Below, piece after piece: positions 5,271 to 15,729 of a stretch of 64,000 nt of DNA (within the stretch, counting starts at the first letter, position 1; each line of letters opens with the position of its first letter). Origin of the DNA: a virus (Duplodnaviria > Caudoviricetes); IMG/VR virus record IMGVR_UViG_3300044719_000253, positions 32,001 to 96,000 of that record. The stretch is one strand, 5' to 3'. A model generated the notes under the pieces. It searched no databases. It had not been told where the DNA came from and saw nothing but the letters and a program-made list of their open reading frames with translations. The position numbers and the translations under genes are program-made.

Positions 5271-6176
5271 TTAAAACACTATTTCCGCTTGTAAGATCCG
5301 GCGCACTTCCATCCAGATCTCCCCCAAAAGATTCGTACCTCGCCATTCCCGCATATCGTAGATGCGGGGATCCTCTTTGGCAATCCCCACCCCCCAGATC
5401 ACATCCCGCTCACTGGCTTCCACCAACACCGCGTTGCCGGTCGAGAGTAAATATTCCCGTATCTCTGTATGCTCACGGGCTTTCTGCAGACACCCGGTCA
5501 ACATGTAACGGCGCCGCTTAGCGGCCCATAGATTCTCATCGAATGGGCGTACGCCCCGCCCCAGCACTTTACAACCCTGGGGATTGGGTTCCGCTAGAAT
5601 CCGCCCGGCCTGGAGTTTGTCGTTAAACAACATGGCTTTCACGTACATCAAGAACTGTTCGCCATGTGCAAATGTCACTCCTTTGACGGTGAAACCAGAA
5701 GGATGGTGATTCGATAACACATCGTGTTTGCTGTAAAATGGCACGATATCTTGGATCAACGGAATTGACACCACGGCTTTGGGAATCTCTTTGTAATACT
5801 GAGGGCCATTGATCTCCCCTTTGAGTTCCACGGTATGGCCACGACTCTCCAAGTAATCCTTGAACTCATGAACGATCAAATGGCGGTGACAGAACTTGCC
5901 TGGCGTACAATAGCAGAGCGCTGCTATTTTTTCATGCTCTTCGAGTTTCTTCCAGACCGTCGGATTATCACGACGCGAATCGCGCATCATCCGTAAGTAC
6001 TGGTCGGTGTATTGCTCATCCGACAGGCGTTGTTCCTTGTGGGCCATCACCATATCCCAGCGGGGCGCAAACGCCTTCACACCAGATTTCACCGTGGTAT
6101 CGAGTACATGGATACCTTTGTCTTGCAAACCACGGCTGCGGGACATCTGGACAGTGTAGAGTTGATAGGTACCCAT
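5271..6176 (-). CDS. DUF488-like domain fused to NADAR (YbiA-like) ADP-ribosylhydrolase
   Basis: C-terminal FYSK..LSNHH..F...G..F..GEQFLMYVKA.LF, KVLGRGV..FDENLW, LLSTGNAVLVEASERDVIWGVG, WRGTNLLGEIWMEVR = NADAR. N-terminal FAPRWDMV...LCYCTPGKFCHRHLI = DUF488-like. Confidence 0.85.
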   Translation of the reverse strand: MGTYQLYTVQMSRSRGLQDKGIHVLDTTVKSGVKAFAPRWDMVMAHKEQRLSDEQYTDQYLRMMRDSRRDNPTVWKKLEEHEKIAALCYCTPGKFCHRHLIVHEFKDYLESRGHTVELKGEINGPQYYKEIPKAVVSIPLIQDIVPFYSKHDVLSNHHPSGFTVKGVTFAHGEQFLMYVKAMLFNDKLQAGRILAEPNPQGCKVLGRGVRPFDENLWAAKRRRYMLTGCLQKAREHTEIREYLLSTGNAVLVEASERDVIWGVGIAKEDPRIYDMREWRGTNLLGEIWMEVRRILQAEIVF

Positions 6177-6187
6177 GTTGACCTCGA

Positions 6188-6361
6188 TTAGATTAGTACA
6201 CGTTGTTCTGGTTTGGCTTCACGGCAATCTTGCCAGCCAAGTTTCCATTCCGCACTTGCCCGGTCGTCGTACGGTAGATTATTCACCCGCGCATTCCAAC
6301 CTTGACTGTAATGAGTTTTCTCGCCTTCAGCAGAGCGAGGCGTCAGTGAGATATCACCCAT
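6188..6361 (-). CDS. ribosome modulation factor (RMF)-like microprotein
   Basis: YSQGWNA...LPY...EWKLGWQD pattern resembles Rmf (GYxAG...CPY...WLGGWRE). AAGGA SD before ATG 6361. Confidence 0.5.
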   Translation of the reverse strand: MGDISLTPRSAEGEKTHYSQGWNARVNNLPYDDRASAEWKLGWQDCREAKPEQRVLI

Positions 6362-6533
6362 GATGATCCTTGTTATTTTGGTTAGCCTCACGCGAAGCTT
6401 TATCCACCACCAGGGCTTCTTGAATCACTTCGCGTGCCTGTTCGGCATTGCCGATACCGTAGATGTACTGGGCCTTCTCAAGCACTTGTTCAGCTACGGT
6501 GCGCAACACAGCATTGGCTTGGTCAGCGTTCAT
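6354..6533 (-). CDS. small hypothetical protein (not in ORF track)
   Basis: MNADQANAVLRTVAEQVLEKAQYIYGIGNAEQAREVIQEALVVDKASREANQNNKDHHG; AAGGAG SD; coupled to both neighbours. Confidence 0.6.
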   Translation of the reverse strand: MNADQANAVLRTVAEQVLEKAQYIYGIGNAEQAREVIQEALVVDKASREANQNNKDHHG

Positions 6534-7150
6534 CCGTGACGACGCTCCTTACGGTTGACCGCCGGCGGCACTTCCCACGGGTTGTCTTGCTGTTCACGCC
6601 GGCGTTGGCTGAGAAGCTGATCGACCCCGGGCTGACAACGTCGACAACACTTCCGACTCTTCTTACCGAAGAAACTGCGCTGACACGTGTGGCACTTGTG
6701 CTGCGAGGTGTTCTTCTTCCCCATGTCTTCCAGCCAATCCAACGCGCGCTGTTCTTCAGCTGCTTTTAACCGTGTAGCGGCTTCCGCTTCGGTTTGGGCA
6801 CCTTGAAGGATATCACGCAGATTCGCCTTGAACTTTTCCACCCAGCCCATGTCAGCATGTTCAGGATCGAACTCGACATGGATGTTGCCGTTGTAGGTGG
6901 TCAGATCCCAGTTGGCCATATTGCCACAGGTCGGACAGACGAACCCATTCTCGATACGGCGCATACGTTGCATCGGCGTACAGGGGCCACAGTACGGCAC
7001 GTAATCCGGATCCTGCAGCTTCTTGGTCATGAAGTCATCACCGGGTACAATCACGCCCCGCGGATGGGCTACAGTGGCTTTCGGAATGCGATGGCGGGCG
7101 GCAAGTTCTGCCGCCAGCTGTTGCTCGTATGGAGTCAGTTCGCGCATCAT
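6530..7150 (-). CDS. zinc-ribbon protein with two Cys clusters
   Basis: CGPC...CPTC and CHTC...CCRRC. Confidence 0.7.
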   Translation of the reverse strand: MMRELTPYEQQLAAELAARHRIPKATVAHPRGVIVPGDDFMTKKLQDPDYVPYCGPCTPMQRMRRIENGFVCPTCGNMANWDLTTYNGNIHVEFDPEHADMGWVEKFKANLRDILQGAQTEAEAATRLKAAEEQRALDWLEDMGKKNTSQHKCHTCQRSFFGKKSRKCCRRCQPGVDQLLSQRRREQQDNPWEVPPAVNRKERRHG

Positions 7151-7156
7151 CGTCCC

Positions 7157-7306
7157 TTAAGCCGTGGTCAAGACTTCTTGTTCCACCGCCTGGGCGTGAA
7201 GCCAACCGTTTTGCCATTCCTGGGGCTGTGACGGATCGCACGGCAGGCCACGGCAAAACGCTTCAAAGCCGATTTCGAACGTCGTTTTTGCTTTCGGGAG
7301 TTTCAT
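7157..7306 (-). CDS. second RMF-like microprotein (49 aa, not in ORF track)
   Basis: MKLPKAKTTFEIGFEAFCRGLPCDPSQPQEWQNGWLHAQAVEQEVLTTA; AAGGA SD. Confidence 0.5.
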   Translation of the reverse strand: MKLPKAKTTFEIGFEAFCRGLPCDPSQPQEWQNGWLHAQAVEQEVLTTA

Positions 7307-7324
7307 AATTTTTCCTTGTCATAC

Positions 7325-7352
7325 GATCCTCCTACCCTTGGGGTGGAGGATC
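7325..7352. terminator. GC-rich hairpin
   Basis: GATCCTCCTACCC-TTG-GGGTGGAGGATC (one bulge), intergenic. Confidence 0.5.
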
Positions 7353-7367
7353 GCGGGGTTTGTGAGG

Positions 7368-7949
7368 TTACTGCACTTGTTGGGTGTTGAGCTGATCCAC
7401 GAGCTGGCTCAGCTGTTCAAAACCGTTCGCGCGCAGCATCATGGCATACGGTTCTTCACCATCGCGGAAGAAGATCCGGACGTAGTCGCCAGTCACGTCG
7501 ACTGCGGATGCATGCGGGGCGATCCGTGCCACGACTTCGCGCAGCGAGAAATACGATGCGATCGAGAAGGCCGGCAGGGTTTTGCGGGATGCGGCGAATG
7601 CCAGGTCGTACAAACGGATTACTGTCGACGGGTCTTGCAGGGCGGCGCCGGGTGCGATTTCCATCGGCTCGGCGATTTTCTGGAAGAACACCGACGCATG
7701 GTCCGATTGATACGCCTGGTAACGTTTGACGGTCTGCCCGTCTTTCACCTCGGCCTTCAGCTTGTAGTCGAACGTGATCTTCGGGTTCGAGGCACCCGAC
7801 ATGGCCCAGCAGCGCAACGCGTCATCGATTGCGGTGATCAGTTGGCTGCGCTCGCCGCTGAACTGGCGATGGATCAGTTCGACTTCACGGGCGTTGAAAT
7901 CGAAATTGGTCAGGGTGAAATCGACGGTGCTGGTTTTCGTGGTTTGCAT
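7368..7949 (-). CDS. hypothetical protein
   Basis: 193 aa, AAGGA SD, AACTAACAAC leader. Confidence 0.75.
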   Translation of the reverse strand: MQTTKTSTVDFTLTNFDFNAREVELIHRQFSGERSQLITAIDDALRCWAMSGASNPKITFDYKLKAEVKDGQTVKRYQAYQSDHASVFFQKIAEPMEIAPGAALQDPSTVIRLYDLAFAASRKTLPAFSIASYFSLREVVARIAPHASAVDVTGDYVRIFFRDGEEPYAMMLRANGFEQLSQLVDQLNTQQVQ

Positions 7950-8022
7950 GACTTTCCTTGGTTGTTAGTTGTGAGGTTGCTACGCGACAACTCCTACACT
8001 AATAAGAGCATCGCGTGAAAAT

Positions 8023-8295
8023 TTAATCTTTGATATTTTTAGTAAGATTCTTCAAAAACGCTGGCACATCCTTCGGTGCTTGCGCGTGGATCTTGGTTTT
8101 CTTGTGGCGTTTGGTTTGCACCGCAGCGCGTTGGTTACGGGCTTCGACTTCCAGCGCATGGCGGTCGATCTCATTTTGCCGCCGACGTTCGTTCTGAACG
8201 ATGCGATGCTGCCGATTGGTTTCAGCTGCGAGACCGAACGCTTTGTCGAAGTTAAAACCTGGGACGTAATAGAGCACCATCATGAGATTCTCCAA
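8023..8295 (-). CDS. small basic hypothetical protein
   Basis: 90-aa ORF co-oriented with neighbours. Confidence 0.55.
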   Translation of the reverse strand: MENLMMVLYYVPGFNFDKAFGLAAETNRQHRIVQNERRRQNEIDRHALEVEARNQRAAVQTKRHKKTKIHAQAPKDVPAFLKNLTKNIKD

Positions 8296-8342
8296 TTAAC
8301 AGACGCCTTGGCTCCTTAGGGGTCAGGGCGTCGGCCGGATAA

Positions 8343-8996
8343 TTACTTTTTGTAGGACGGAGCTTTGTAACCGTAACTCGGCGACGGTTTCGGGGCTGGC
8401 AGGGCGATGGGCTTGGCCAGGGAAACCCGGGGTGCCGGTTGCTTGTATGCCACCGCAGTATAGGCCGATGGTTTGTAATTCGCGGCCGGTGTGGGTGACG
8501 TGGGTATGGTCACGGTTTTCGGGGCGGTCAATGCCGAGGCAGTCATGGTGGGTGTCGGGCTGACTGTACCGGGCGCAGCATAGCTCGGCTTTACGGCTGC
8601 AGGGGCCGGCGTCAGCGGTGTCGGAGCGGGAGCAGAGGCCGGGGTAGCAGCAGCCGGCGGGGTGGTCTTGGCATCGGCAGCGTGGTTATTAACGATCACC
8701 GTCTTGTTGACTTGCGTCACGTGGGTCACGTTCTGCTGCACGGTCGGACGGTTGTCGTAGACCGGATGGGCGCCGCGATCGCGATCGGTGAGGGCCATGG
8801 TAGCGACCGCGCCAAGGGCGGCGCCGGCGACCAGTGCGGTACCGGTGTTGTCCGATTGCTGTACGACCACGGGAGCTTGGGCGGGAGCCGGGGCTTGTTG
8901 GACGACTGGGGGTTGTTGGTATTGGACTTGAGGAGGCTGATCGTTACCGCACGCGACGAGGGTGAGCAACGCCAGAATGGTGAAGAGCTTTTTCAT
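8343..8996 (-). CDS. Pro/Ala/Thr-rich lipoprotein
   Basis: Signal peptide MKKLFTILALLTLVA-C with lipobox, hydrophobic ALVAGAALGAVATMAL, disordered Pro-rich tail. Confidence 0.8.
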   Translation of the reverse strand: MKKLFTILALLTLVACGNDQPPQVQYQQPPVVQQAPAPAQAPVVVQQSDNTGTALVAGAALGAVATMALTDRDRGAHPVYDNRPTVQQNVTHVTQVNKTVIVNNHAADAKTTPPAAATPASAPAPTPLTPAPAAVKPSYAAPGTVSPTPTMTASALTAPKTVTIPTSPTPAANYKPSAYTAVAYKQPAPRVSLAKPIALPAPKPSPSYGYKAPSYKK

Positions 8997-9030
8997 GTTA
9001 TTCCTTATGGATGTAGTTATGGCATAAAGA

Positions 9031-9052
9031 CCCTAGCCCCTTCGGGCTAGGG
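9031..9052 (-). terminator. hairpin terminator after nadV
   Basis: CCCTAGCCC-CTTC-GGGCTAGGG; minus strand continues TCTTTATG. Confidence 0.7.
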
Positions 9053-9062
9053 CTTCATGATG

Positions 9063-10610
9063 TTACGCTACTGCGGCGACAGCATCGACCGATTGCGCGA
9101 ACGCCAAACGATTCGCCGCTTTGTCGATAGCACCTTTCTGCGCATTGGCGCGGGTGTCATCGAACGATTGACGCCAGTCACGATAGCCCTTGTCGAGCCA
9201 GCGACGGTGTCCAGGACCCGGCACGAACATCTCGTAGAGACTGTTCGATACCAGGGCGTCGAAGGTTTCGAGTTCACCGTTGTCGTTTTCACGATTACGG
9301 ATCAACCCCGACAGCGACTTCTTACCCAGGTCCGACTTCGGTTCCTTGAGCACGCGTTCCCACGATTCGCAGCGTTTCGCGATCGTCTTCATGCTGAAGC
9401 TCAGTTTGTCACGGGAACCTTCGTTGGTGATGCCGGCACCCATGCCGAGCAGGAAGTTATTGGTGGAGAACTTGTGGTCCACCACCGCTGCCCGCACGAC
9501 GGGTTCGAAAGTGCTGACGTTCATGCCGTCACCATACAGTGCCCCGATGCATGGGGGCAGGTCTTGGTAACCAGCCGCGTTCACGGTTGTGCCGAAGATG
9601 TCCTTCAGCCAGCCGAGCACTTGTGGCAACTTCTTCTTGGGGATGCCCGAATCCGGACGGATGACCAAACGGCCACCCGAGTTTTCGATTTCCACCTTGA
9701 AGCCAGCGACGTACACCGTGACGAAACGTTCATCGTCGTAGGTATCAGGCACCGTCGAGATCACCGGGATACCGATGCCGCGTTTGCTACGCTCGACCAC
9801 CGCGTTCAAGCGCCGCATCACCATCTGCATGCCGCCGAAATCGTCACGCGTTGCCGCGTCCGAGTTCAGGCAGACCGTCGTGTGTTCCGTGGCTTCCACC
9901 GAGCTGGTGTAGGCCTTGGGCGTGTTGTAGAGCGTCTTGATGTAACGATTGGCGCGACCACAATCACTGCCCAGGAACAGCATCGCGTGTGCAATGCCTT
10001 TCAGGACGGGGGTTTCATCTGGACCATCTGCACCACGATCACCGAAGTTGTGGATCAGATATTCCAGCATGTTGATGTTACCACCGGACAGGAGTACGTA
10101 GTACGCCATAGTGGTGAACATGTAGCGGCAGATGGTGGCCGTATAGGTCATCGACCACGACACCGACTGGATCACTGGCTCGAAGTACGGGACCAACCAC
10201 GCAGTGTGGTCATCGTCTTCGTTGGTCACCAGCAGAATCGGCGTCTGGGGCTTAACCACACGACCTTCTTCAACCCCGAACATGGTCAGAGGAATCCGAC
10301 CGCCGTAGGTGCGAAGGATGTACTCCCAGCCTTCGCGGTTGAAGTGATAGCCCTGCTCGGTAATTTCGACTTCTGCTTCGTCGATCATCCATTGTTCGAG
10401 ACGCGCCGTGGCGAACACGTGAGCGATGAACGTTTGTCCGGCGGCCACGATGTCGTCCGTGATCAGCGCGCCGTTGTCGTCGAACAGCGGTTTACGCGGC
10501 ACCACAGCTGAAACCAGCTGCTTCACACCAAAGGGAATTTCTTCCCAGTGGGCAAATTTGTAGGTGTCGCACCAGAGGATGATGTTGAAGGGTTTTACGA
10601 GTTCCAGCAT
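9063..10610 (-). CDS. nadV: nicotinamide phosphoribosyltransferase (NAMPT/NadV)
   Basis: DTYK, HNFGDRG, GSDC, ATEHTT (phospho-His site), DTYD, VIRPDSG, GDG, RDKLSFSMK, KSDLGKKS. Confidence 0.9.
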   Translation of the reverse strand: MLELVKPFNIILWCDTYKFAHWEEIPFGVKQLVSAVVPRKPLFDDNGALITDDIVAAGQTFIAHVFATARLEQWMIDEAEVEITEQGYHFNREGWEYILRTYGGRIPLTMFGVEEGRVVKPQTPILLVTNEDDDHTAWLVPYFEPVIQSVSWSMTYTATICRYMFTTMAYYVLLSGGNINMLEYLIHNFGDRGADGPDETPVLKGIAHAMLFLGSDCGRANRYIKTLYNTPKAYTSSVEATEHTTVCLNSDAATRDDFGGMQMVMRRLNAVVERSKRGIGIPVISTVPDTYDDERFVTVYVAGFKVEIENSGGRLVIRPDSGIPKKKLPQVLGWLKDIFGTTVNAAGYQDLPPCIGALYGDGMNVSTFEPVVRAAVVDHKFSTNNFLLGMGAGITNEGSRDKLSFSMKTIAKRCESWERVLKEPKSDLGKKSLSGLIRNRENDNGELETFDALVSNSLYEMFVPGPGHRRWLDKGYRDWRQSFDDTRANAQKGAIDKAANRLAFAQSVDAVAAVA

Positions 10611-10698
10611 GATAATTGGCTCCCAATTATTTACTTCACCGGTAAGGGACCGGCAACCCTCATGGCATCTGCCACTAATCTGTACTGCTGCTTGTTAC

Positions 10699-11826
10699 TT
10701 ACGCCGTGAAGAAATCCACGATGTCGTTGTGGTCGTCCCACATCTTGACACGACCGCTGATGATGTCGTACTTAGGGATCCAGCGGATCCCGCCATTCGG
10801 CAACGTCGGATGGGCGGCATCGTCACCACCGTTGGCACGGGGGAACTTACCGTCACGCGCTTCGATCTTGATGTACACGCCCAGCGTCGACTTCGGTACC
10901 GAAGACAAAGTCCGGCCCGGGTGATCGAACAGATGGGTTTGTTGGACGCAGTTACGGATTGTTTGTTCCGGCACCCGCAAGTTGGTCTCTTCGAACAGTT
11001 CCCGAATGGCGGTGTTAAACGCCGTTTCGTTCGTGTTCTTGTGACCACCTGGCAAAGCGACTTGCCCATAACCGAGTTCCCCGGCCCGGGTCACGGTCAG
11101 GATATGGCCGGCGCATTCCACGATAGCGTCACCGCACATGACATTCAACGCTTCCGGGTACGGATAGTTCTTGAACTTCTCCGGTTCCGTGTGCGTCAAA
11201 TAGTACCAGTCACGCTGCAACGGCTCGTTGAACTGGTGACCGTCGCGCAGGTAGTCGTACATCTCGGGGACCAAATGGTCTTGGAGACGCAGACCGCCCG
11301 GTGCAGTTTGCGAATGACGGAACCACAGCTCGCGCAGCCGTGTCGCATCGATGTCTTCGACCTTCCCCACGTCCTTGGTCTTCCACTGCGGGAAGGAGTT
11401 CATGTAGTAGGTCGATTCATCCTTGTCGGTACCGTACAGCGTGATCCGATCGGGATGGATACCGACTTGCTCGGCGTAGACTTCAGCATTCTGGTACACC
11501 CGCATCTTCCACCGTTCCTCGTTGTAGAGGGTGTCGTTCAGTGGCACGACCATGAATTGCCCATTCGGTTTGATCCGTTCGAGCACCTTAGTCATGAGCA
11601 TGGCACGGATGGCGTACTCGTGCGGGTTTTTCTTGGACACGCAACGATTCGCCGAACCGATCATGACCAGCAGATAGTCATTCTCAGCGGCCATGATGCG
11701 CAGGGTACGTTCATGCTGACGATGGATGAACGAGAAACGCCCGATCATCACACCCAACTTGGGCTTGGAAACAAATACTTCTGGTGCAGCGTGTTGCATT
11801 TTTCGACTCCCGAAAAATAAGCGCAT
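10699..11826 (-). CDS. nadM: bifunctional NMN adenylyltransferase / ADP-ribose pyrophosphatase (NadM-Nudix)
   Basis: IGRFSFIHRQH, IGSAN..KNP, YYMNSFPQW, DATRLR; Nudix box LPGG...ETAFNTAIRELFEET; GGDDA; DHNDII. Alternative start at 11799. Confidence 0.9.
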   Translation of the reverse strand: MRLFFGSRKMQHAAPEVFVSKPKLGVMIGRFSFIHRQHERTLRIMAAENDYLLVMIGSANRCVSKKNPHEYAIRAMLMTKVLERIKPNGQFMVVPLNDTLYNEERWKMRVYQNAEVYAEQVGIHPDRITLYGTDKDESTYYMNSFPQWKTKDVGKVEDIDATRLRELWFRHSQTAPGGLRLQDHLVPEMYDYLRDGHQFNEPLQRDWYYLTHTEPEKFKNYPYPEALNVMCGDAIVECAGHILTVTRAGELGYGQVALPGGHKNTNETAFNTAIRELFEETNLRVPEQTIRNCVQQTHLFDHPGRTLSSVPKSTLGVYIKIEARDGKFPRANGGDDAAHPTLPNGGIRWIPKYDIISGRVKMWDDHNDIVDFFTA

Positions 11827-11997: not shown

Positions 11998-12285
11998 TTA
12001 CAGCTTGACGCAGGACAGAGAAACCGGCTTCTCGTAACTGATACCACCGTAAGGCGAAACAGCGCTACATTGCACACCGTTGTAAATCCAGGTACTTACA
12101 TGGAATGTTTGACTGGTCGCATTGGTGTACTTGAACTCACTCACCGGCGGAGCAATAGCGCCCGCTTGTGCCGAATGGGCAAAGAACACTTGGTTCGTCA
12201 ACCATCCCACTACGAAGGCGAGAAACACCCACTTGAACAGCTCACTGCTCAATTCTTTCCATGCTTTCTTTTGATCGTAGGTCAT
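11998..12285 (-). CDS. small membrane protein with C-terminal Cys pair
   Basis: Hydrophobic LFKWVFLAFVVGWL, then C...C at the C-terminus. Confidence 0.7.
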   Translation of the reverse strand: MTYDQKKAWKELSSELFKWVFLAFVVGWLTNQVFFAHSAQAGAIAPPVSEFKYTNATSQTFHVSTWIYNGVQCSAVSPYGGISYEKPVSLSCVKL

Positions 12286-12288
12286 GGG

Positions 12289-13359
12289 TTACTCCCAGTC
12301 CAACGTGGTGGACACTTTGTTTTCGACAGGGGCCGAGGTGACTTGACGGCTTTCTTGCAGACCAAGCGCGTGTGCCATCCACGGGAACGGGTTGGCTTGC
12401 GGTTGGAAGATCGTACCCAGGCCGAGCTTGCTCGCCATGCGATTCGCCACGTGTTGCAGCAAATAGCTGTACTGGTGCGCCGGCACAGTGTCTTCGGGCA
12501 ACGCCGTAGCGATAGCGTGGGCCGCTTCCAGCGATACAGCTTCCTTAAACCTCAGTCTGATCAAATCAACCAGCTCCGTGGTCCAGATCTGCGGGTTCTC
12601 GTTCCTGATCGCTTGGATCACTTCGAGACCGAATTCGACTTGGGTTTGCTGATCACGCAGCATCAGCGAGAATTGCTGGACCAGATCCGGAAGTTCGTTT
12701 TGCAGACCATGCGCGAGAATGCGGGTAAAGTCGACAATCGAGAACAAACCCTTCATCGCGCAAGTGTACGTGACCAGCTCAAGTACGAACACGCCCGCAT
12801 CCACCGAAGTGTCGGTACGGAACTTTGGATCGCCCAACACATTTGCAGTCAGCTGCGCGTAGCGTTGTTTGTCATGGAACGATGTCGGTTGGTTAGCCGG
12901 ATCGAGCAACACGTCTTCGTTCAGCTTGAGCCGTTCGACGATATGAGCATAAGCGTGCGGTACGAGCGCTTCTTCGAAGCCCTGCCGCAGGATATACTGA
13001 CGTGCTTCCGGCGCCGTGATATGACGATAGATATTCATGGCCAAACTGCCGGCGGCGCCAACGGTTTGCACCATCGCGCCCACGGTCCGTTCGATACGTT
13101 TCAGTTCGAACGGCGTGATCATACCAGCCTCGATCTGCGCCGCGTCGGTATCCATCTTGTACTCTTGCGGCATCCAGTGGTTGTTGCAGCTGTCATTGTA
13201 CATCTGCCAGGCCCACTTGTACTTGAACGGCACTAACTGGTTAACGTCGGTGGTCGCATTGATCATGCGCTTGTCCGACGCATTCACACGCTGCGAGGTG
13301 TCGACATTCGGATCGACCGGTTGGACTGATACTGCTTCTTCATCAAAATTCAACTGCAT
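12289..13359 (-). CDS. nrdB: ribonucleotide reductase beta-subunit homolog with degenerate metal site (probable pseudo-enzyme)
   Basis: RVNASDKRMIN..DVNQLVPFKYKWAW, NHWMPQE, YRHITAPEARQYILRQGFEEA, NPFPWM, terminal LDWE. Ligand motifs altered (ALVPHAY, MKG, RDQQTQ). Confidence 0.9.
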   Translation of the reverse strand: MQLNFDEEAVSVQPVDPNVDTSQRVNASDKRMINATTDVNQLVPFKYKWAWQMYNDSCNNHWMPQEYKMDTDAAQIEAGMITPFELKRIERTVGAMVQTVGAAGSLAMNIYRHITAPEARQYILRQGFEEALVPHAYAHIVERLKLNEDVLLDPANQPTSFHDKQRYAQLTANVLGDPKFRTDTSVDAGVFVLELVTYTCAMKGLFSIVDFTRILAHGLQNELPDLVQQFSLMLRDQQTQVEFGLEVIQAIRNENPQIWTTELVDLIRLRFKEAVSLEAAHAIATALPEDTVPAHQYSYLLQHVANRMASKLGLGTIFQPQANPFPWMAHALGLQESRQVTSAPVENKVSTTLDWE

Positions 13360-13367
13360 GATATTCC

Positions 13368-13583
13368 CTAGTTTTTAATAAACAGATCGATGTCTTTTTC
13401 TTCCCATAAGCCATTGTCGCATTGATACCAAGGGTTGTCACGATAGGTATCGACTCGCGTACATTGGTGGCTTAAAATGAAGGTGGCTTTTCTTTTATCT
13501 TGCGTGTAATTTCGATAAATTGTAAACACAATGAGCAGTACGCTAACGGCAGCGCACCATTTAGCTACCTGTTTATCTTTCAT
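13368..13583 (-). CDS. small single-TM protein, HxC...YxCxxG family (copy 3)
   Basis: TM then FILSHQC...WYQCDNG. Confidence 0.75.
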   Translation of the reverse strand: MKDKQVAKWCAAVSVLLIVFTIYRNYTQDKRKATFILSHQCTRVDTYRDNPWYQCDNGLWEEKDIDLFIKN

Positions 13584-13831
13584 GAACCCGTTTCCTTTCG
13601 CAGATCGTTTTCCAGATGCAGACCATTGTCACACCGGTACACGGATTGGGATGGTTGACCAACCCGTCCCAACTCACGGCAGTGGTGTTGATCCAGATAC
13701 TGAATCAGATTGCGATCTTGATAGAGATGATGCTGGTAAAAACCATACACTACTCCACCAAAGAACGCAATCAAAATCCACTGAATGACCAAGTCACGGT
13801 AATTGAACCAAAAACGTCGAAAGAGATTCAT
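13580..13831 (-). CDS. small single-TM protein, HxC...YxCxxG family (copy 2)
   Basis: TM then YLDQHHC...VYRCDNG; ATGA overlaps. Confidence 0.75.
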   Translation of the reverse strand: MNLFRRFWFNYRDLVIQWILIAFFGGVVYGFYQHHLYQDRNLIQYLDQHHCRELGRVGQPSQSVYRCDNGLHLENDLRKETGS

Positions 13832-14130
13832 TTCAGTGCTTTCTCACGCAGTTCGAAGTCGAGCATCCGCCCGTCAGCGCACTGGTACACCGCACGCTTC
13901 TTGCGATCGCCACCCATGAAACTGTCGATCTTGCATTGGTGCCCATCGATATACGTCAACACTTTTCGGTCGTCTTCTTTACCGACTTTGTTGGACCAGA
14001 CGACGAGCCCCAGCACAACCACCAGAATGATCAAGAGAACCACCGCTCCAGCTGGAGTGAGGCTATCAGAACCGCTGGAGCTGCCGGCAAAGAAGAAATC
14101 ACTGCTGTCACTATCATTATCCCAGGACAT
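13828..14130 (-). CDS. small single-TM protein, HxC...YxCxxG family (copy 1)
   Basis: TM then YIDGHQC...VYQCADG. Confidence 0.75.
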   Translation of the reverse strand: MSWDNDSDSSDFFFAGSSSGSDSLTPAGAVVLLIILVVVLGLVVWSNKVGKEDDRKVLTYIDGHQCKIDSFMGGDRKKRAVYQCADGRMLDFELREKALK

Positions 14131-14148: not shown

Positions 14149-15216
14149 TTAAACCACCATTGGCGGAACAGGTGTTTTCAGAATGTGGGGATCATATCCT
14201 TCAAGCTTGAAGTCGTTGGGTTCCACCCACTTGAGCCAATTGACGGCTTCCTCCGTCGCTTTGTCTTTACCGACACGAATGACCAGTTCCTCATAAGTCG
14301 GTACACGGGGGTCGATATGAAGCGTCGGCGCTTCCTTGGCCTCGTTCGATAACAGCTCGGTTAGGTACTCTACTTGATTTTCATAAACGTGGGCGTCACC
14401 GATGAAATACGAAAGCTTCTTCGGTTTATAACCGGTCAGGTGGCCGACGATATGCATGAACAGCGCAGCTTCCGCCATGTTGAACGGTGCGCCGAGGCCC
14501 AGATCATTGCTGCGGATGTAGAGCACCATGTTCAGTTCTTTGGTGTAGCTGTCGGGCAGGAACTGATACAACAGGTGGCAAGACGGCAGCGCGACTTGAT
14601 CCAGCAAAGCCGGGTCCCATCCGTGGAACAGAATACGGCGGGAATCTGGGTTGTTGATGATGGTCCGCACGCAGTCGCCGAGCTGGTCGATTGATTTGTG
14701 AAAAATCACCCCTTGTGGTTTGCCATCTTCCTCGAAAGTGTGACCGATAGGGAACCAGCCATCCGCATTAATTTTGGCGACGATAGCAGTATAACGGTCA
14801 AACTCCTCCGTCGCAGCATCCATCGCCGGAGATTGGATGACCTTGTAACCATCCCACTCGCGCCAGGGTTTACCGTACACCGGACCGACATCGTCGACGC
14901 CTTTACGGAAAGGATTCGACAGCCATGCGTTCGGCGTGACGCCATGTTCATTGGCGTTTTGATCCCACACTTTGCAGTTGAGGGCGCGGAAGTCTGCTGC
15001 GCTGGTCAGAGCACGCAGAAAACCACAGGCTTCACCCTTAACTGGCATGAACGCCAGTTTCTTGAGGGTAGTAGCCGGAAATGCTTTTGACACGTCGGGG
15101 AACACCATGAATTCCCCAGTGGTTTTGTAAGCGTTAACACCCGTGCGATTGGGGCGCAAGTTATCCGGCACCATCACACGCTGGAGTAATGCTTTGTATT
15201 GATCAGGTTGGTTCAT
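14149..15216 (-). CDS. thyA: thymidylate synthase
   Basis: NRTG, FPATTLKKL, GPVYG..WREW, IDQL, NPDSRR, ALPSCH, RSNDLGLGAPFN, GDAHVYENQ. Confidence 0.97.
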   Translation of the reverse strand: MNQPDQYKALLQRVMVPDNLRPNRTGVNAYKTTGEFMVFPDVSKAFPATTLKKLAFMPVKGEACGFLRALTSAADFRALNCKVWDQNANEHGVTPNAWLSNPFRKGVDDVGPVYGKPWREWDGYKVIQSPAMDAATEEFDRYTAIVAKINADGWFPIGHTFEEDGKPQGVIFHKSIDQLGDCVRTIINNPDSRRILFHGWDPALLDQVALPSCHLLYQFLPDSYTKELNMVLYIRSNDLGLGAPFNMAEAALFMHIVGHLTGYKPKKLSYFIGDAHVYENQVEYLTELLSNEAKEAPTLHIDPRVPTYEELVIRVGKDKATEEAVNWLKWVEPNDFKLEGYDPHILKTPVPPMVV

Positions 15217-15504: not shown

Positions 15505-15729
15505 CTATTTCACGCAATCGGTGTACATGTCCCCTTCCGCATCCGGATGGGTGATACAGACTTTGGCATCCGCAGGAATTGAATGCATTCGCACCACGGG
15601 CTTCACGACATAACCCACTGGCACCACTTGGGTGGGTTCATGCAAAACAATCGCGGTCACGATCACCCCCGACAACACGCCACCCAAAAAGAATGCGACA
15701 TTGGCCAGAGATAAGACGTAATCTTTCAT
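15505..15729 (-). CDS. small single-TM protein with C-terminal Cys pair
   Basis: Hydrophobic N-terminus; VC...DCVK C-terminus. Confidence 0.65.
   Translation of the reverse strand: MKDYVLSLANVAFFLGGVLSGVIVTAIVLHEPTQVVPVGYVVKPVVRMHSIPADAKVCITHPDAEGDMYTDCVK

What the first reader, a model, noticed from the sequence alone, without database searches (positions are those of the whole stretch)
12289..13359. Intact but apparently catalytically dead RNR beta subunit: candidate phage mimic or inhibitor of host RNR
SEEN: full-length 356-aa ORF with the scaffold motifs of betaproteobacterial/chlamydial-type NrdB (DVNQLVPFKYKWAW, NHWMPQE, HITAPEARQY.LRQ.FEEA, NPFPWM). KNOWN consensus versus this protein, aligned by eye from memory: first ligand TA[DE]S becomes QTVG; EAIH becomes EALV; MEG becomes MKG; RDES.H becomes RDQQTQ. 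Five of six metal ligands are lost, including both His. The tail NFFETRVIEY becomes RQVTSAPVENK, removing the E350- and Y356-equivalent radical-transfer residues. The radical-site Tyr (HAY) and the terminal L-x-W-E are kept. This differs from metal-free class Ie R2 (VPK/QSK), which keeps the His residues. INFERENCE: loss of every catalytic position in an unbroken ORF points to selection for a non-catalytic role. Options are a dominant-negative partner or allosteric modulator of host NrdA/NrdB, a decoy for a host defence sensor, or, less likely, a new metal-free radical protein (Lys in the vacated site). No nrdA is present in this window.
Basis: partly seen in the sequence, partly recalled or inferred. 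Interest (0 to 1): 0.85.

Follow-up and report, generated by a model that had tools for sequence, protein, structure and literature searches.

The report
Radical-dead RNR small subunit in phage
A giant phage with no ribonucleotide reductase of its own keeps, under strong selection, a copy of the enzyme's small subunit that has lost its metal site and radical relay but kept the surfaces and tail that grip the large subunit, so it most likely works by binding the host's enzyme, not by catalysis.

Summary
Window 12289-13359 (-) is an intact 356-aa NrdB homologue (Pfam PF00268, E 1e-40; PDB R2 E 5e-64; confident R2 fold). Five of six metal ligands are replaced (V/E/V/K/Q/Q), and so are the F208-, E350- and Y356-equivalents.

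It is not a decaying copy. Twelve distinct sequences form one clade (100/100) nested in Burkholderiales-type NrdB. They sit at a syntenic locus (TMK, ThyA, dead beta, NMNAT, NAMPT) in related phiKZ-like jumbo phages. dN/dS is 0.12, like the neighbouring enzyme genes.

All twelve members lack H118, E204 (always Lys), F208, E350 and Y356. All keep W48, E52, R236, D237, the N-terminal arm, the tail length and the terminal T-L-x-W-[DE].

Three complete relatives (DTR, 271-322 kb) and this 226-kb record have no nrdA, no second nrdB, and no nrdD or nrdI.

Best reading: a non-catalytic beta' pseudo-subunit that docks on host class Ia NrdA, and possibly on host NrdB. Whether it inhibits, helps or re-routes host RNR is unresolved; no binding test could be run.

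Class Ie-like metal-free chemistry and pseudogene decay are rejected.

The scan met this clade before on other DNA (e1-5335896, e1-5335910, e1-3418233), with the same conclusion. No description turned up in the few full-text searches I ran.

The parts
12289..13359 (-). Complete CDS of the radical-dead RNR small-subunit homologue (beta'), 356 aa plus stop codon
   Evidence: ORF list and translation; PF00268 E 9.9e-41; PDB R2 E 5e-64; AF2 core pLDDT mostly above 85 and Foldseek top hit C. trachomatis NrdB, TM 0.82
13180..13290 (-). Residues 24-60, N-terminal arm and first helix (RVNASDKRMINATTDVNQLVPFKYKWAW...). This is the most conserved stretch of the protein, about 0.9 identity to consensus in both the dead and the intact groups
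   Evidence: Windowed conservation; invariant columns; low pLDDT for residues 1-42 in the monomer model, as expected for a partner-dependent arm
13162..13179 (-). Residues 61-66, HWMPQE: equivalents of E. coli W48 (W62) and E52 (E66), retained in all 12 dead members
   Evidence: role of W48 and E52 at the alpha/beta interface from PMC11482829
13060..13062 (-). Codon of V100, in place of the first metal ligand (Asp, D84 in E. coli)
12949..12978 (-). Residues 128-137, FEEALVPHAY: E130 (E115 equivalent) kept, V133 replaces the His ligand (H118), Y137 is the radical-site Tyr (Y122 equivalent)
12727..12756 (-). Residues 202-211, MKGLFSIVDF: K203 replaces the Glu ligand (E204; Lys in all 12 members), S207 replaces F208 of the radical pocket, F211 is the F212 equivalent
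12640..12660 (-). Residues 234-240, LRDQQTQ: R235 and D236 (R236 and D237 equivalents) kept; Q237 and Q240 replace the Glu and His ligands (E238, H241)
12292..12375 (-). Residues 329-356, flexible C-terminal tail. E350 equivalent is S342 and Y356 equivalent is N347, both lost. Tail length is kept (29 residues after NPFPW, against 30 in 212 of the 214 intact relatives measured) and the terminal T-L-D-W-E anchor is kept
   Evidence: pLDDT below 50 for 336-356
14149..15216 (-). Context: thymidylate synthase, same strand and same gene run, upstream of beta'
   Evidence: PF00303 E 1.4e-62; synteny in L002, L009, L014
16852..17583 (-). Context: thymidylate kinase
   Evidence: PF02223 E 1.2e-48; synteny
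9063..11826 (-). Context: NAD-salvage pair downstream of beta' (NMNAT/Nudix-type protein at 10699-11826, NAMPT at 9063-10610)
   Evidence: PF00293, PF04095 and PF18127; synteny in L002 and L014

Best explanation
The gene encodes a folded but catalytically dead paralogue of a Burkholderiales-type class Ia RNR small subunit: a viral beta'. It can neither assemble the dimetal cofactor nor pass a radical to the large subunit. Its ancestor was a host-like nrdB captured by a phiKZ-like jumbo-phage lineage. In the common ancestor of the present clade, the His118 and Glu204 ligands (Glu204 became Lys), Phe208, Glu350 and Tyr356 were lost, and the rest of the metal site decayed later.

Selection has preserved the parts a beta subunit uses to meet its partners:
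- the N-terminal arm;
- the W48/E52/R236/D237 patch that faces alpha;
- a flexible tail of unchanged length ending in the T-L-x-W-[D/E] anchor that in intact relatives inserts into NrdA.

These phages have no nrdA and no active nrdB. The inferred mode of action is therefore docking on the host's NrdA (and possibly pairing with host NrdB as a beta-beta' heterodimer), so changing host dNTP synthesis during infection.

Shown: homology, fold, loss of catalytic residues, purifying selection, clade-wide pattern, absence of a phage alpha.
Inferred: binding to host NrdA/NrdB.
Unresolved: whether the outcome is inhibition (a natural Y356-type dominant negative), Rnr4-like support, or recruitment of host alpha into the phage's dTMP-synthesis module.
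For: - Homology and fold.
- Catalytic residues lost: 5 of 6 ligands plus F208, E350 and Y356.
- Twelve distinct sequences share the H118, E204-to-K, F208, E350 and Y356 losses. All keep W48, E52, E115, R236, D237, tail length 29-31 and the terminal TLxW.
- The clade is monophyletic (100/100) inside Burkholderiales-type NrdB.
- The locus is syntenic in four phage genomes: TMK, ThyA, beta', NMNAT, NAMPT, NADAR.
- DNA polymerase identity to this genome grades 90, 71 and 55% across the beta'-bearing genomes, so inheritance was vertical.
- dN/dS is 0.12 against 0.05-0.14 for flanking enzyme genes.
- The most conserved stretches are the N-terminal arm and the partner-facing motifs, not the metal site.
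- No NrdA was found by Pfam or by a Collimonas NrdA query in this record or in three complete DTR genomes. There is one PF00268 hit per genome, and no NrdD or NrdI.
- Precedents: beta-only viruses pair with host alpha, and an inactive R2 that still binds R1 is dominant negative in vaccinia (PMC2900304). Yeast Rnr4 is a ligand-deficient beta' (PMC3824934). E52, R236 and D237 lie at the alpha/beta interface and E350 positions the tail (PMC11482829).
- A complete unrelated jumbo phage (G007) carries an intact nrdB with no nrdA, so phage beta acting on host alpha is plausible.
Against: - No direct or predicted binding evidence.
- The host is unknown.
- W48 and D237 may be kept for structural reasons alone.
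- Long branches (1-2 substitutions per site) show strongly altered constraints, so the protein could have acquired an unrelated partner.
- Inhibiting host RNR seems at odds with the adjacent dTMP-synthesis genes, and an Rnr4-like helper role has no precedent in bacteria.
- The window's own record is only 83% complete. The nrdA absence there rests on the close complete relative G001.
Confidence: 0.6

Rival explanations
1. Neofunctionalised scaffold unrelated to RNR. The R2 four-helix bundle has been recruited for another job, for example binding another phage or host protein, or acting as a decoy for a host defence sensor. The conserved arm and tail serve that new partner.
For: Very long branches and about 60% sequence change relative to intact NrdB. 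There are clade-specific invariant switches (K203, S207, Y198, K348, T352, H139). Small membrane-protein genes of unknown function flank the gene in the same run.
Against: The residues kept unchanged are the host-like ones (arm, HWMPQE, LRD, TLxW[DE]) and not new motifs. The tail length is identical to active beta. The gene sits in a nucleotide-metabolism module. No defence-related neighbours were seen.
Confidence: 0.22
2. Still catalytic through new, metal-free radical chemistry (class Ie-like), using the retained Tyr137 and the Lys in the vacated site.
For: Y137 is kept in this protein and in 9 of 12 clade members. A Lys lies in the former metal site, which superficially recalls R2e (PMC11846895).
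Against: The Y356 and E350 equivalents are lost in all 12 members, so there is no canonical route to alpha. The radical Tyr is H, F or Q in three members. F208 of the radical pocket is lost in all. Both His are lost here, whereas I recall that R2e keeps them (not checked in the papers read). The Lys is at the E204 position and not at the E238-equivalent position of R2e. No NrdI and no alpha are in the genomes.
Confidence: 0.03
3. A decaying pseudogene remnant of a former phage nrdAB operon, with no function.
For: Catalytic residues are lost, evolution is accelerated, and nrdA is missing.
Against: The ORF is intact in 12 diverged sequences down to 41-44% identity. dN/dS is 0.12, like the neighbouring enzymes. 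Seventy-four columns are at least 90% conserved in both the dead and the intact groups. Synteny is kept across genomes whose DNA polymerases are only 55% identical.
Confidence: 0.02

Closest known systems
Yeast Rnr4 (Y4), the non-catalytic beta' of the Rnr2-Rnr4 heterodimer
   Same: R2 fold with several metal ligands replaced. It cannot make the cofactor or the radical, and it is retained because it partners with RNR subunits (PMC3824934 text).
   Different: Rnr4 is encoded beside an active paralogue in the same genome and is needed for its partner's activity. Here the only possible active partners are the host's. More ligands are lost here (5 of 6), and the tail Tyr and Glu are lost too. The origin is independent (betaproteobacterial-type NrdB). 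Heterodimer formation was not tested.
Poxvirus R2-only strategy and the vaccinia F4 inactive point mutant
   Same: A virus encodes a small subunit without a large one, and it works through the host large subunit via its C-terminal residues. An R2 that binds R1 but cannot transfer the radical acts as a dominant negative (PMC2900304).
   Different: Natural poxvirus R2s are catalytically active, and the dominant-negative form was engineered. Here the dead form is the natural, conserved state in a phage.
Burkholderiales/Pseudomonas-type class Ia NrdB and its structural relative C. trachomatis R2c (PDB 1SYY, 4D8F, 4M1I)
   Same: Closest sequences (40-42% identity) and closest structures (TM about 0.82). 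They share the N-terminal arm, HWMPQE, ITAPEARQY, NPFPW and the terminal LxW[DE] motifs.
   Different: The intact relatives aligned here keep the ligands and the PCET tail residues in at least 214 of 216 sequences, and the cellular example examined (Collimonas) lies beside nrdA. The phage protein has neither.
Class Ie metal-free R2e (VPK/QSK NrdF)
   Same: Carboxylate ligands are replaced, one of them by Lys, and the Tyr next to the site is retained.
   Different: R2e derives from class Ib NrdF, keeps the Asp (and, as I recall, both His), places the Lys at the E238-equivalent position, needs NrdI, keeps the relay to alpha and lies in nrdFIE/nrdHIEF operons (PMC11846895). None of these holds here.
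Phages that carry nrdB without nrdA
   Same: Dwivedi et al. 2013 list two phages with nrdB only (PMC3653736).
   Different: G007's beta has every catalytic residue checked. The residues of the two phages in the paper were not examined here.

Membership tests
RNR small subunit family (Pfam PF00268, ferritin-like R2) | Profile match above the curated cut-off over the full domain | tested here: met
   140.4 bits against a cut-off of 33.6, profile positions 2-281 of 281
RNR small subunit family (Pfam PF00268, ferritin-like R2) | R2 helical-bundle fold | tested here: met
   AF2 mean pLDDT 80, core mostly above 85. Foldseek top hits are all R2; C. trachomatis NrdB TMt 0.81-0.84
Functional class Ia/Ic RNR beta subunit | Six metal ligands (D/E, E, H, E, E, H) | tested here: not met
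   V, E, V, K, Q, Q at these columns. The 216 intact relatives have the canonical residues in at least 214
Functional class Ia/Ic RNR beta subunit | Radical-site Tyr (Ia) or Phe with an Mn/Fe site (Ic) | tested here: inconclusive
   Y137 is present here, but it is H, F or Q in 3 of 12 clade members, and the F208 pocket residue is lost in all
Functional class Ia/Ic RNR beta subunit | C-terminal relay residues (Y356 and E350 equivalents) | tested here: not met
   N347 and S342. Both are lost in all 12 clade members
Functional class Ia/Ic RNR beta subunit | Cognate alpha subunit encoded with it | tested here: not met
   No PF02867 or PF00317 hit and no match to the Collimonas NrdA barrel in G000, or in the complete genomes G001, G002 and G005
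Class Ie metal-free R2e | VPK or QSK substitution of three Glu, with the Asp kept (and, as I recall, both His) | tested here: not met
   Asp and both His are lost. The Lys is at the E204 position, not the E238-equivalent position (PMC11846895)
Class Ie metal-free R2e | NrdI and NrdE partners in the operon or genome | tested here: not met
   No PF07972 in G000, G001, G002 or G005. No alpha
Rnr4-type non-catalytic beta' | R2 fold lacking metal ligands, kept under selection | tested here: met
Rnr4-type non-catalytic beta' | Forms a heterodimer with an active beta and supports its activity | not testable with these tools
This needs biochemistry with host NrdB
Rnr4-type non-catalytic beta' | Active paralogue encoded in the same genome | tested here: not met
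   A single PF00268 hit per genome in G000, G001, G002 and G005
Alpha-binding R2 tail (C-terminal anchor that inserts into R1) | Conserved extreme C-terminus at a fixed distance from the body | tested here: met
   Tail of 29-31 residues in all 12 members against 30 in 212 of the 214 intact relatives measured. E346, L353 and W355 are at least 90% conserved in both groups
Alpha-binding R2 tail (C-terminal anchor that inserts into R1) | Physical binding to NrdA | not testable with these tools

The most novel reading that the evidence does not exclude
The dead subunit is a host-takeover factor. Through its retained tail and alpha-facing patch it captures host NrdA. It then either shuts off host dNTP synthesis as a natural dominant negative, or tethers host alpha (perhaps as a beta-beta' hybrid with host NrdB) to the phage's own ThyA/TMK module. 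The second option would be a dNTP-synthetase-like complex built around a pseudo-enzyme. Either would be the first viral pseudo-subunit known to reprogramme a host ribonucleotide reductase.
Probability: 0.3. Interest if true: 0.8.

Novelty: new variant of a known kind. Interest (0 to 1): 0.62.

Why it matters
RNR is the sole de novo source of dNTPs and a classic point of virus-host conflict. Viruses are known to bring whole RNRs or active small subunits. A conserved, radical-dead small subunit that keeps only its partner-binding parts would be a different strategy: controlling the host enzyme with a pseudo-subunit.

It offers a natural experiment on which parts of beta suffice for alpha recognition. 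It could also be a template for protein or peptide inhibitors of Pseudomonas/Burkholderia-type RNRs. And it gives a simple handle for asking how nucleus-forming-type jumbo phages secure their DNA precursors.

The prediction is directly testable with recombinant proteins.

Tried and rejected
No binding verdict of any kind was obtained.
- The cultured-phage collection gave no close relative: best tblastn 36% for beta', none for the neighbouring 1053-aa protein, 39% for NAMPT. No isolate or host could be named.
- The tubulin (PhuZ) Pfam search was inconclusive in this lineage. The phiKZ-like assignment rests on PHROG hits to the split RNAP beta subunit, the DNA polymerase and virion proteins.
- No glutaredoxin or thioredoxin that might hint at support of host alpha.
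- P0008 (491 aa) looked like a possible fused member. It is an intact NrdB with an internal duplication and was excluded.
- Class Ie, class Ic, pseudogene and 'second intact nrdB elsewhere' readings were rejected.
- Literature searches for a described phage dead NrdB found nothing. The Voegtli 2001 Rnr4 structure paper is not held, so Rnr4 details are cited second-hand.

Full report
**1. Observation**

The minus-strand ORF at 12289-13359 is real: 356 aa with an ATG start. The upstream gene's stop codon ends 8 nt before that ATG, and its own stop lies 3 nt before the next ATG. It matches Pfam PF00268 (RNR small chain) end to end, at E 9.9e-41. Its best solved relatives are 6y2n (E 5e-64) and the Chlamydia trachomatis R2c entries 1syy, 2ani and 4d8f (E about 1e-62). 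An AlphaFold2 model built on a 33-sequence alignment has mean pLDDT 80. The helical core is mostly above 85, and only residues 1-42 and 336-356 are disordered. Foldseek returns only R2 proteins; the top hit is C. trachomatis NrdB, with TM-score by target 0.81-0.84.

**2. Catalytic residues**

I aligned the protein with its nearest relatives, with 216 intact NrdBs and with E. coli NrdB fetched from MG1655. In E. coli numbering:

| E. coli residue | This protein |
|---|---|
| D84 | V100 |
| E115 | E130 (kept) |
| H118 | V133 |
| Y122 | Y137 (kept) |
| E204 | K203 |
| F208 | S207 |
| E238 | Q237 |
| H241 | Q240 |
| E350 | S342 |
| Y356 | N347 |

In the 216 intact relatives each of these columns holds the canonical residue in at least 214 sequences.

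The hydrophobic radical-pocket residue F208 is also lost. The equivalents of W48, E52, R236 and D237 are all retained. According to the 2.6-A cryo-EM analysis of the active E. coli complex, these residues line the beta side of the alpha/beta interface and its water network. That paper also assigns E350 the job of positioning the tail, and Y356 the radical hop to alpha (PMC11482829).

**3. Not a one-off and not decay**

Searches of 5.8 billion proteins found nine degenerate relatives at once: P0002 at 75%, P0003 at 69%, and P0004-7, P0009 and P0010 at 44-47%. Three more came from a viral-contig scan and a ligand screen: L009, P0124 and P0133. Including P0001 itself, that makes 12 distinct sequences, where contig size is known mostly on 270-323 kb contigs.

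- All 12 lack H118, F208, E350 and Y356, and all have Lys at E204.
- All 12 keep W48, E52, E115, R236 and D237.
- The tail after NPFPW is 29-31 residues, against 30 in 212 of the 214 intact relatives measured.
- All end in T-L-x-W, usually followed by D or E.
- The least degenerate member (P0006) reads D/E/R/Y/K/E/H, so Arg and Lys fill the metal site.
- Three members have also lost the radical Tyr (H, F, Q).

A maximum-likelihood tree built before P0124 and P0133 were recognised puts the ten members then known in one clade (100/100). That clade is nested among Burkholderiales-type cellular and viral NrdBs. Its branches are 1-2 substitutions per site, against 0.02-0.3 for intact proteins.

The gene lies at the same place in four genomes: thymidylate kinase, thymidylate synthase, small membrane proteins, beta', small membrane protein, NMNAT/Nudix, NAMPT, and further on NADAR. 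The DNA polymerase of this genome is 90, 71 and 55% identical to those of G001, G005 and G002. The gene has therefore been inherited vertically through a deep phage radiation.

Between the window and G001, dN/dS is 0.12 (dN 0.16, dS 1.4, near saturation). The flanking ThyA, NAMPT, NMNAT and NADAR genes give 0.05-0.14. Pseudogene decay is excluded.

**4. What is conserved**

Along the sequence, the dead clade is most conserved in residues 21-60: the N-terminal arm and first helix, at about 0.9 identity to consensus, as high as in active enzymes. The stretches carrying the former ligands are relaxed. Seventy-four columns are at least 90% conserved with the same residue in both the dead and the intact groups. 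They include HWMPQE, YR-ITAPE-RQ-LRQ, LRD, ENP--W, and E346, L353 and W355 in the tail.

So the protein has kept host-like partner-facing features and a tail of unchanged length with its terminal anchor, while losing exactly the residues needed for cofactor assembly and radical export. It is established knowledge that R2 C-terminal residues are the R1-binding determinant. The vaccinia work shows this: C-terminal residues of F4 are required for binding host R1, and an inactive F4 point mutant that still binds R1 is dominant negative (PMC2900304).

**5. No enzyme for it to serve in the phage**

The window lies in an IMG/VR virus record of 226 kb, 83% complete. That record has one PF00268 hit (this gene), no NrdA barrel or all-alpha domain, and no NrdD. 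Three relatives with direct terminal repeats and 100% estimated completeness also have only the degenerate beta and no alpha: G001 at 272 kb, G002 at 322 kb and G005 at 271 kb. This holds both by Pfam and by a search with the Collimonas NrdA barrel. They also lack NrdI, glutaredoxin and thioredoxin.

The same searches do find NrdA in G004, 76% identical to Collimonas NrdA, so the method works.

PHROG hits in the window mark a phiKZ-like jumbo phage: split RNAP beta subunit, DNA polymerase, virion proteins. Cultured Burkholderiales relatives of that kind (RP12/RP31, FLC6, S13) carry normal alpha and beta subunits.

**6. Evolutionary setting**

- G003 is the next-closest genome (DNA polymerase 43% identical). 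It carries an intact, very host-like (Massilia-type) nrdB about 8 kb downstream of ThyA. No nrdA was found in its 82%-complete record.
- G007 is an unrelated complete 249-kb phage with an intact nrdB and no nrdA.
- A 2013 survey noted two phages with nrdB only (PMC3653736).

Phage beta subunits working with host alpha are therefore plausible starting points. The dead clade looks like a lineage in which alpha binding alone remained useful after the chemistry was lost.

**7. Mechanism and rivals**

The best-supported explanation is a non-catalytic beta' that docks on host class Ia NrdA and possibly pairs with host NrdB (confidence 0.6). The host enzyme would be of the Pseudomonas/eukaryote-like type; Collimonas NrdA matches P. 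aeruginosa 5IM3 at 1390 bits.

I cannot decide the sign of the effect:

- A beta'2 homodimer would be a natural Y356-type competitive inhibitor.
- A beta-beta' hybrid would resemble yeast Rnr2-Rnr4, whose beta' lacks ligands and is thought to act as a chaperone (PMC3824934).
- The position of the gene between ThyA/TMK and the NAD-salvage genes would also fit tethering host alpha to phage nucleotide enzymes.

Rivals:

| Reading | Confidence | Main objection |
|---|---|---|
| Scaffold or decoy unrelated to RNR | 0.22 | The preserved residues are the host-like ones |
| Class Ie-like metal-free chemistry | 0.03 | Relay, pocket, His residues, NrdI and alpha are all missing; Lys is at a different ligand position from R2e (PMC11846895; PMC8902622 highlights) |
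| Pseudogene | 0.02 | Contradicted by section 3 |

**8. Novelty**

Non-catalytic R2 paralogues (Rnr4) and virus beta-only strategies are known. A naturally radical-dead, alpha-less viral beta conserved across a phage clade did not turn up in the full-text searches I ran. I rate it a new variant of a known kind.

The scan has met the same clade before on other DNA: e1-5335896 and e1-5335910 (L009-type pattern) and e1-3418233 (P0006-type Arg/Lys pattern). Those follow-ups reached the same reading. What I add:

- the clade-wide residue table;
- monophyly and synteny;
- dN/dS against neighbouring genes;
- complete-genome absence of alpha;
- the intact-beta sister and the beta-only phages.

**9. 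Limits**

No binding prediction or expression data could be obtained. dS is near saturation. Assigning the N-terminal arm and the W48/E52 patch to partner contacts rests on the E. coli literature and not on a structure of this subtype.

Noticed in passing
window 13368-14130 (-), also 11998-12285 (-) and 15505-15729 (-): Three tandem, translationally coupled genes for small single-pass membrane proteins (71, 83 and 100 aa) lie directly upstream of beta'. They share H-x-C ... Y-[QR]-C-[DA]-[ND]-G. Further TM microproteins flank the gene. Homologues flank beta' in L002 and L014 too.
   Followed up: partly
L010 / G007 (IMGVR_UViG_3300046507_000667, 249 kb, DTR): A complete jumbo-phage genome unrelated to this one has a fully intact nrdB (all ligands, Y122, Y356) but no nrdA. 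This is a beta-only phage that presumably uses host NrdA.
   Followed up: partly
L003 / G003 (IMGVR_UViG_3300011871_000002, 218 kb, 82% complete): This is the sister lineage (DNA polymerase 43% identical). It has an intact, Massilia-like nrdB about 8 kb downstream of ThyA, and no nrdA was found. Its ThyA ORF (559 aa) carries an I-HmuI/NUMOD-like endonuclease domain. A dCTP-deaminase-like gene lies 5 kb further on.
   Followed up: partly
window 5271-11826 (-): An NAD-salvage and ADP-ribose module lies in the same gene run as beta': NADAR plus a DUF488-N3 fusion, NAMPT, and a 375-aa Nudix-containing protein in the position of the NMNAT/Nudix gene of NAD-salvage pairs. It is conserved in G001, G002 and partly in G005.
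   Followed up: no
L009 8122-9123 and L014 6269-6829: The ThyA-position genes of G005 and G002 are only about 26% identical to this window's ThyA, while TMK is 46-52% identical. They may be a different ThyA-family enzyme, such as a pyrimidine hydroxymethylase, which would hint at differing DNA modification.
   Followed up: no
P0008 (ENA metagenome protein, 491 aa): An intact betaproteobacterial-type NrdB with an internal repeat of about 130 aa (YI[VT]ESLGLDE ... AAEQYQY occurs twice). It is probably an assembly artefact or a recent duplication, and is not a dead member.
   Followed up: no
L021 (CAKLQH020000007.1, 'Acinetobacter phage MD-2021a'): This record of the phage collection carries rstA, nrdA, nrdB, a LysR regulator and a PhzF-family gene. 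It looks like bacterial chromosome and not phage.
   Followed up: no
G002:C1:11382-13061 and G004:C1:140088-141920: The DNA-polymerase homologues of G002 and G004 are read through one in-frame stop each (TAG and TAA respectively), and the G004 match is in two pieces. Possible causes are an intron, recoding or a sequencing error.
   Followed up: no
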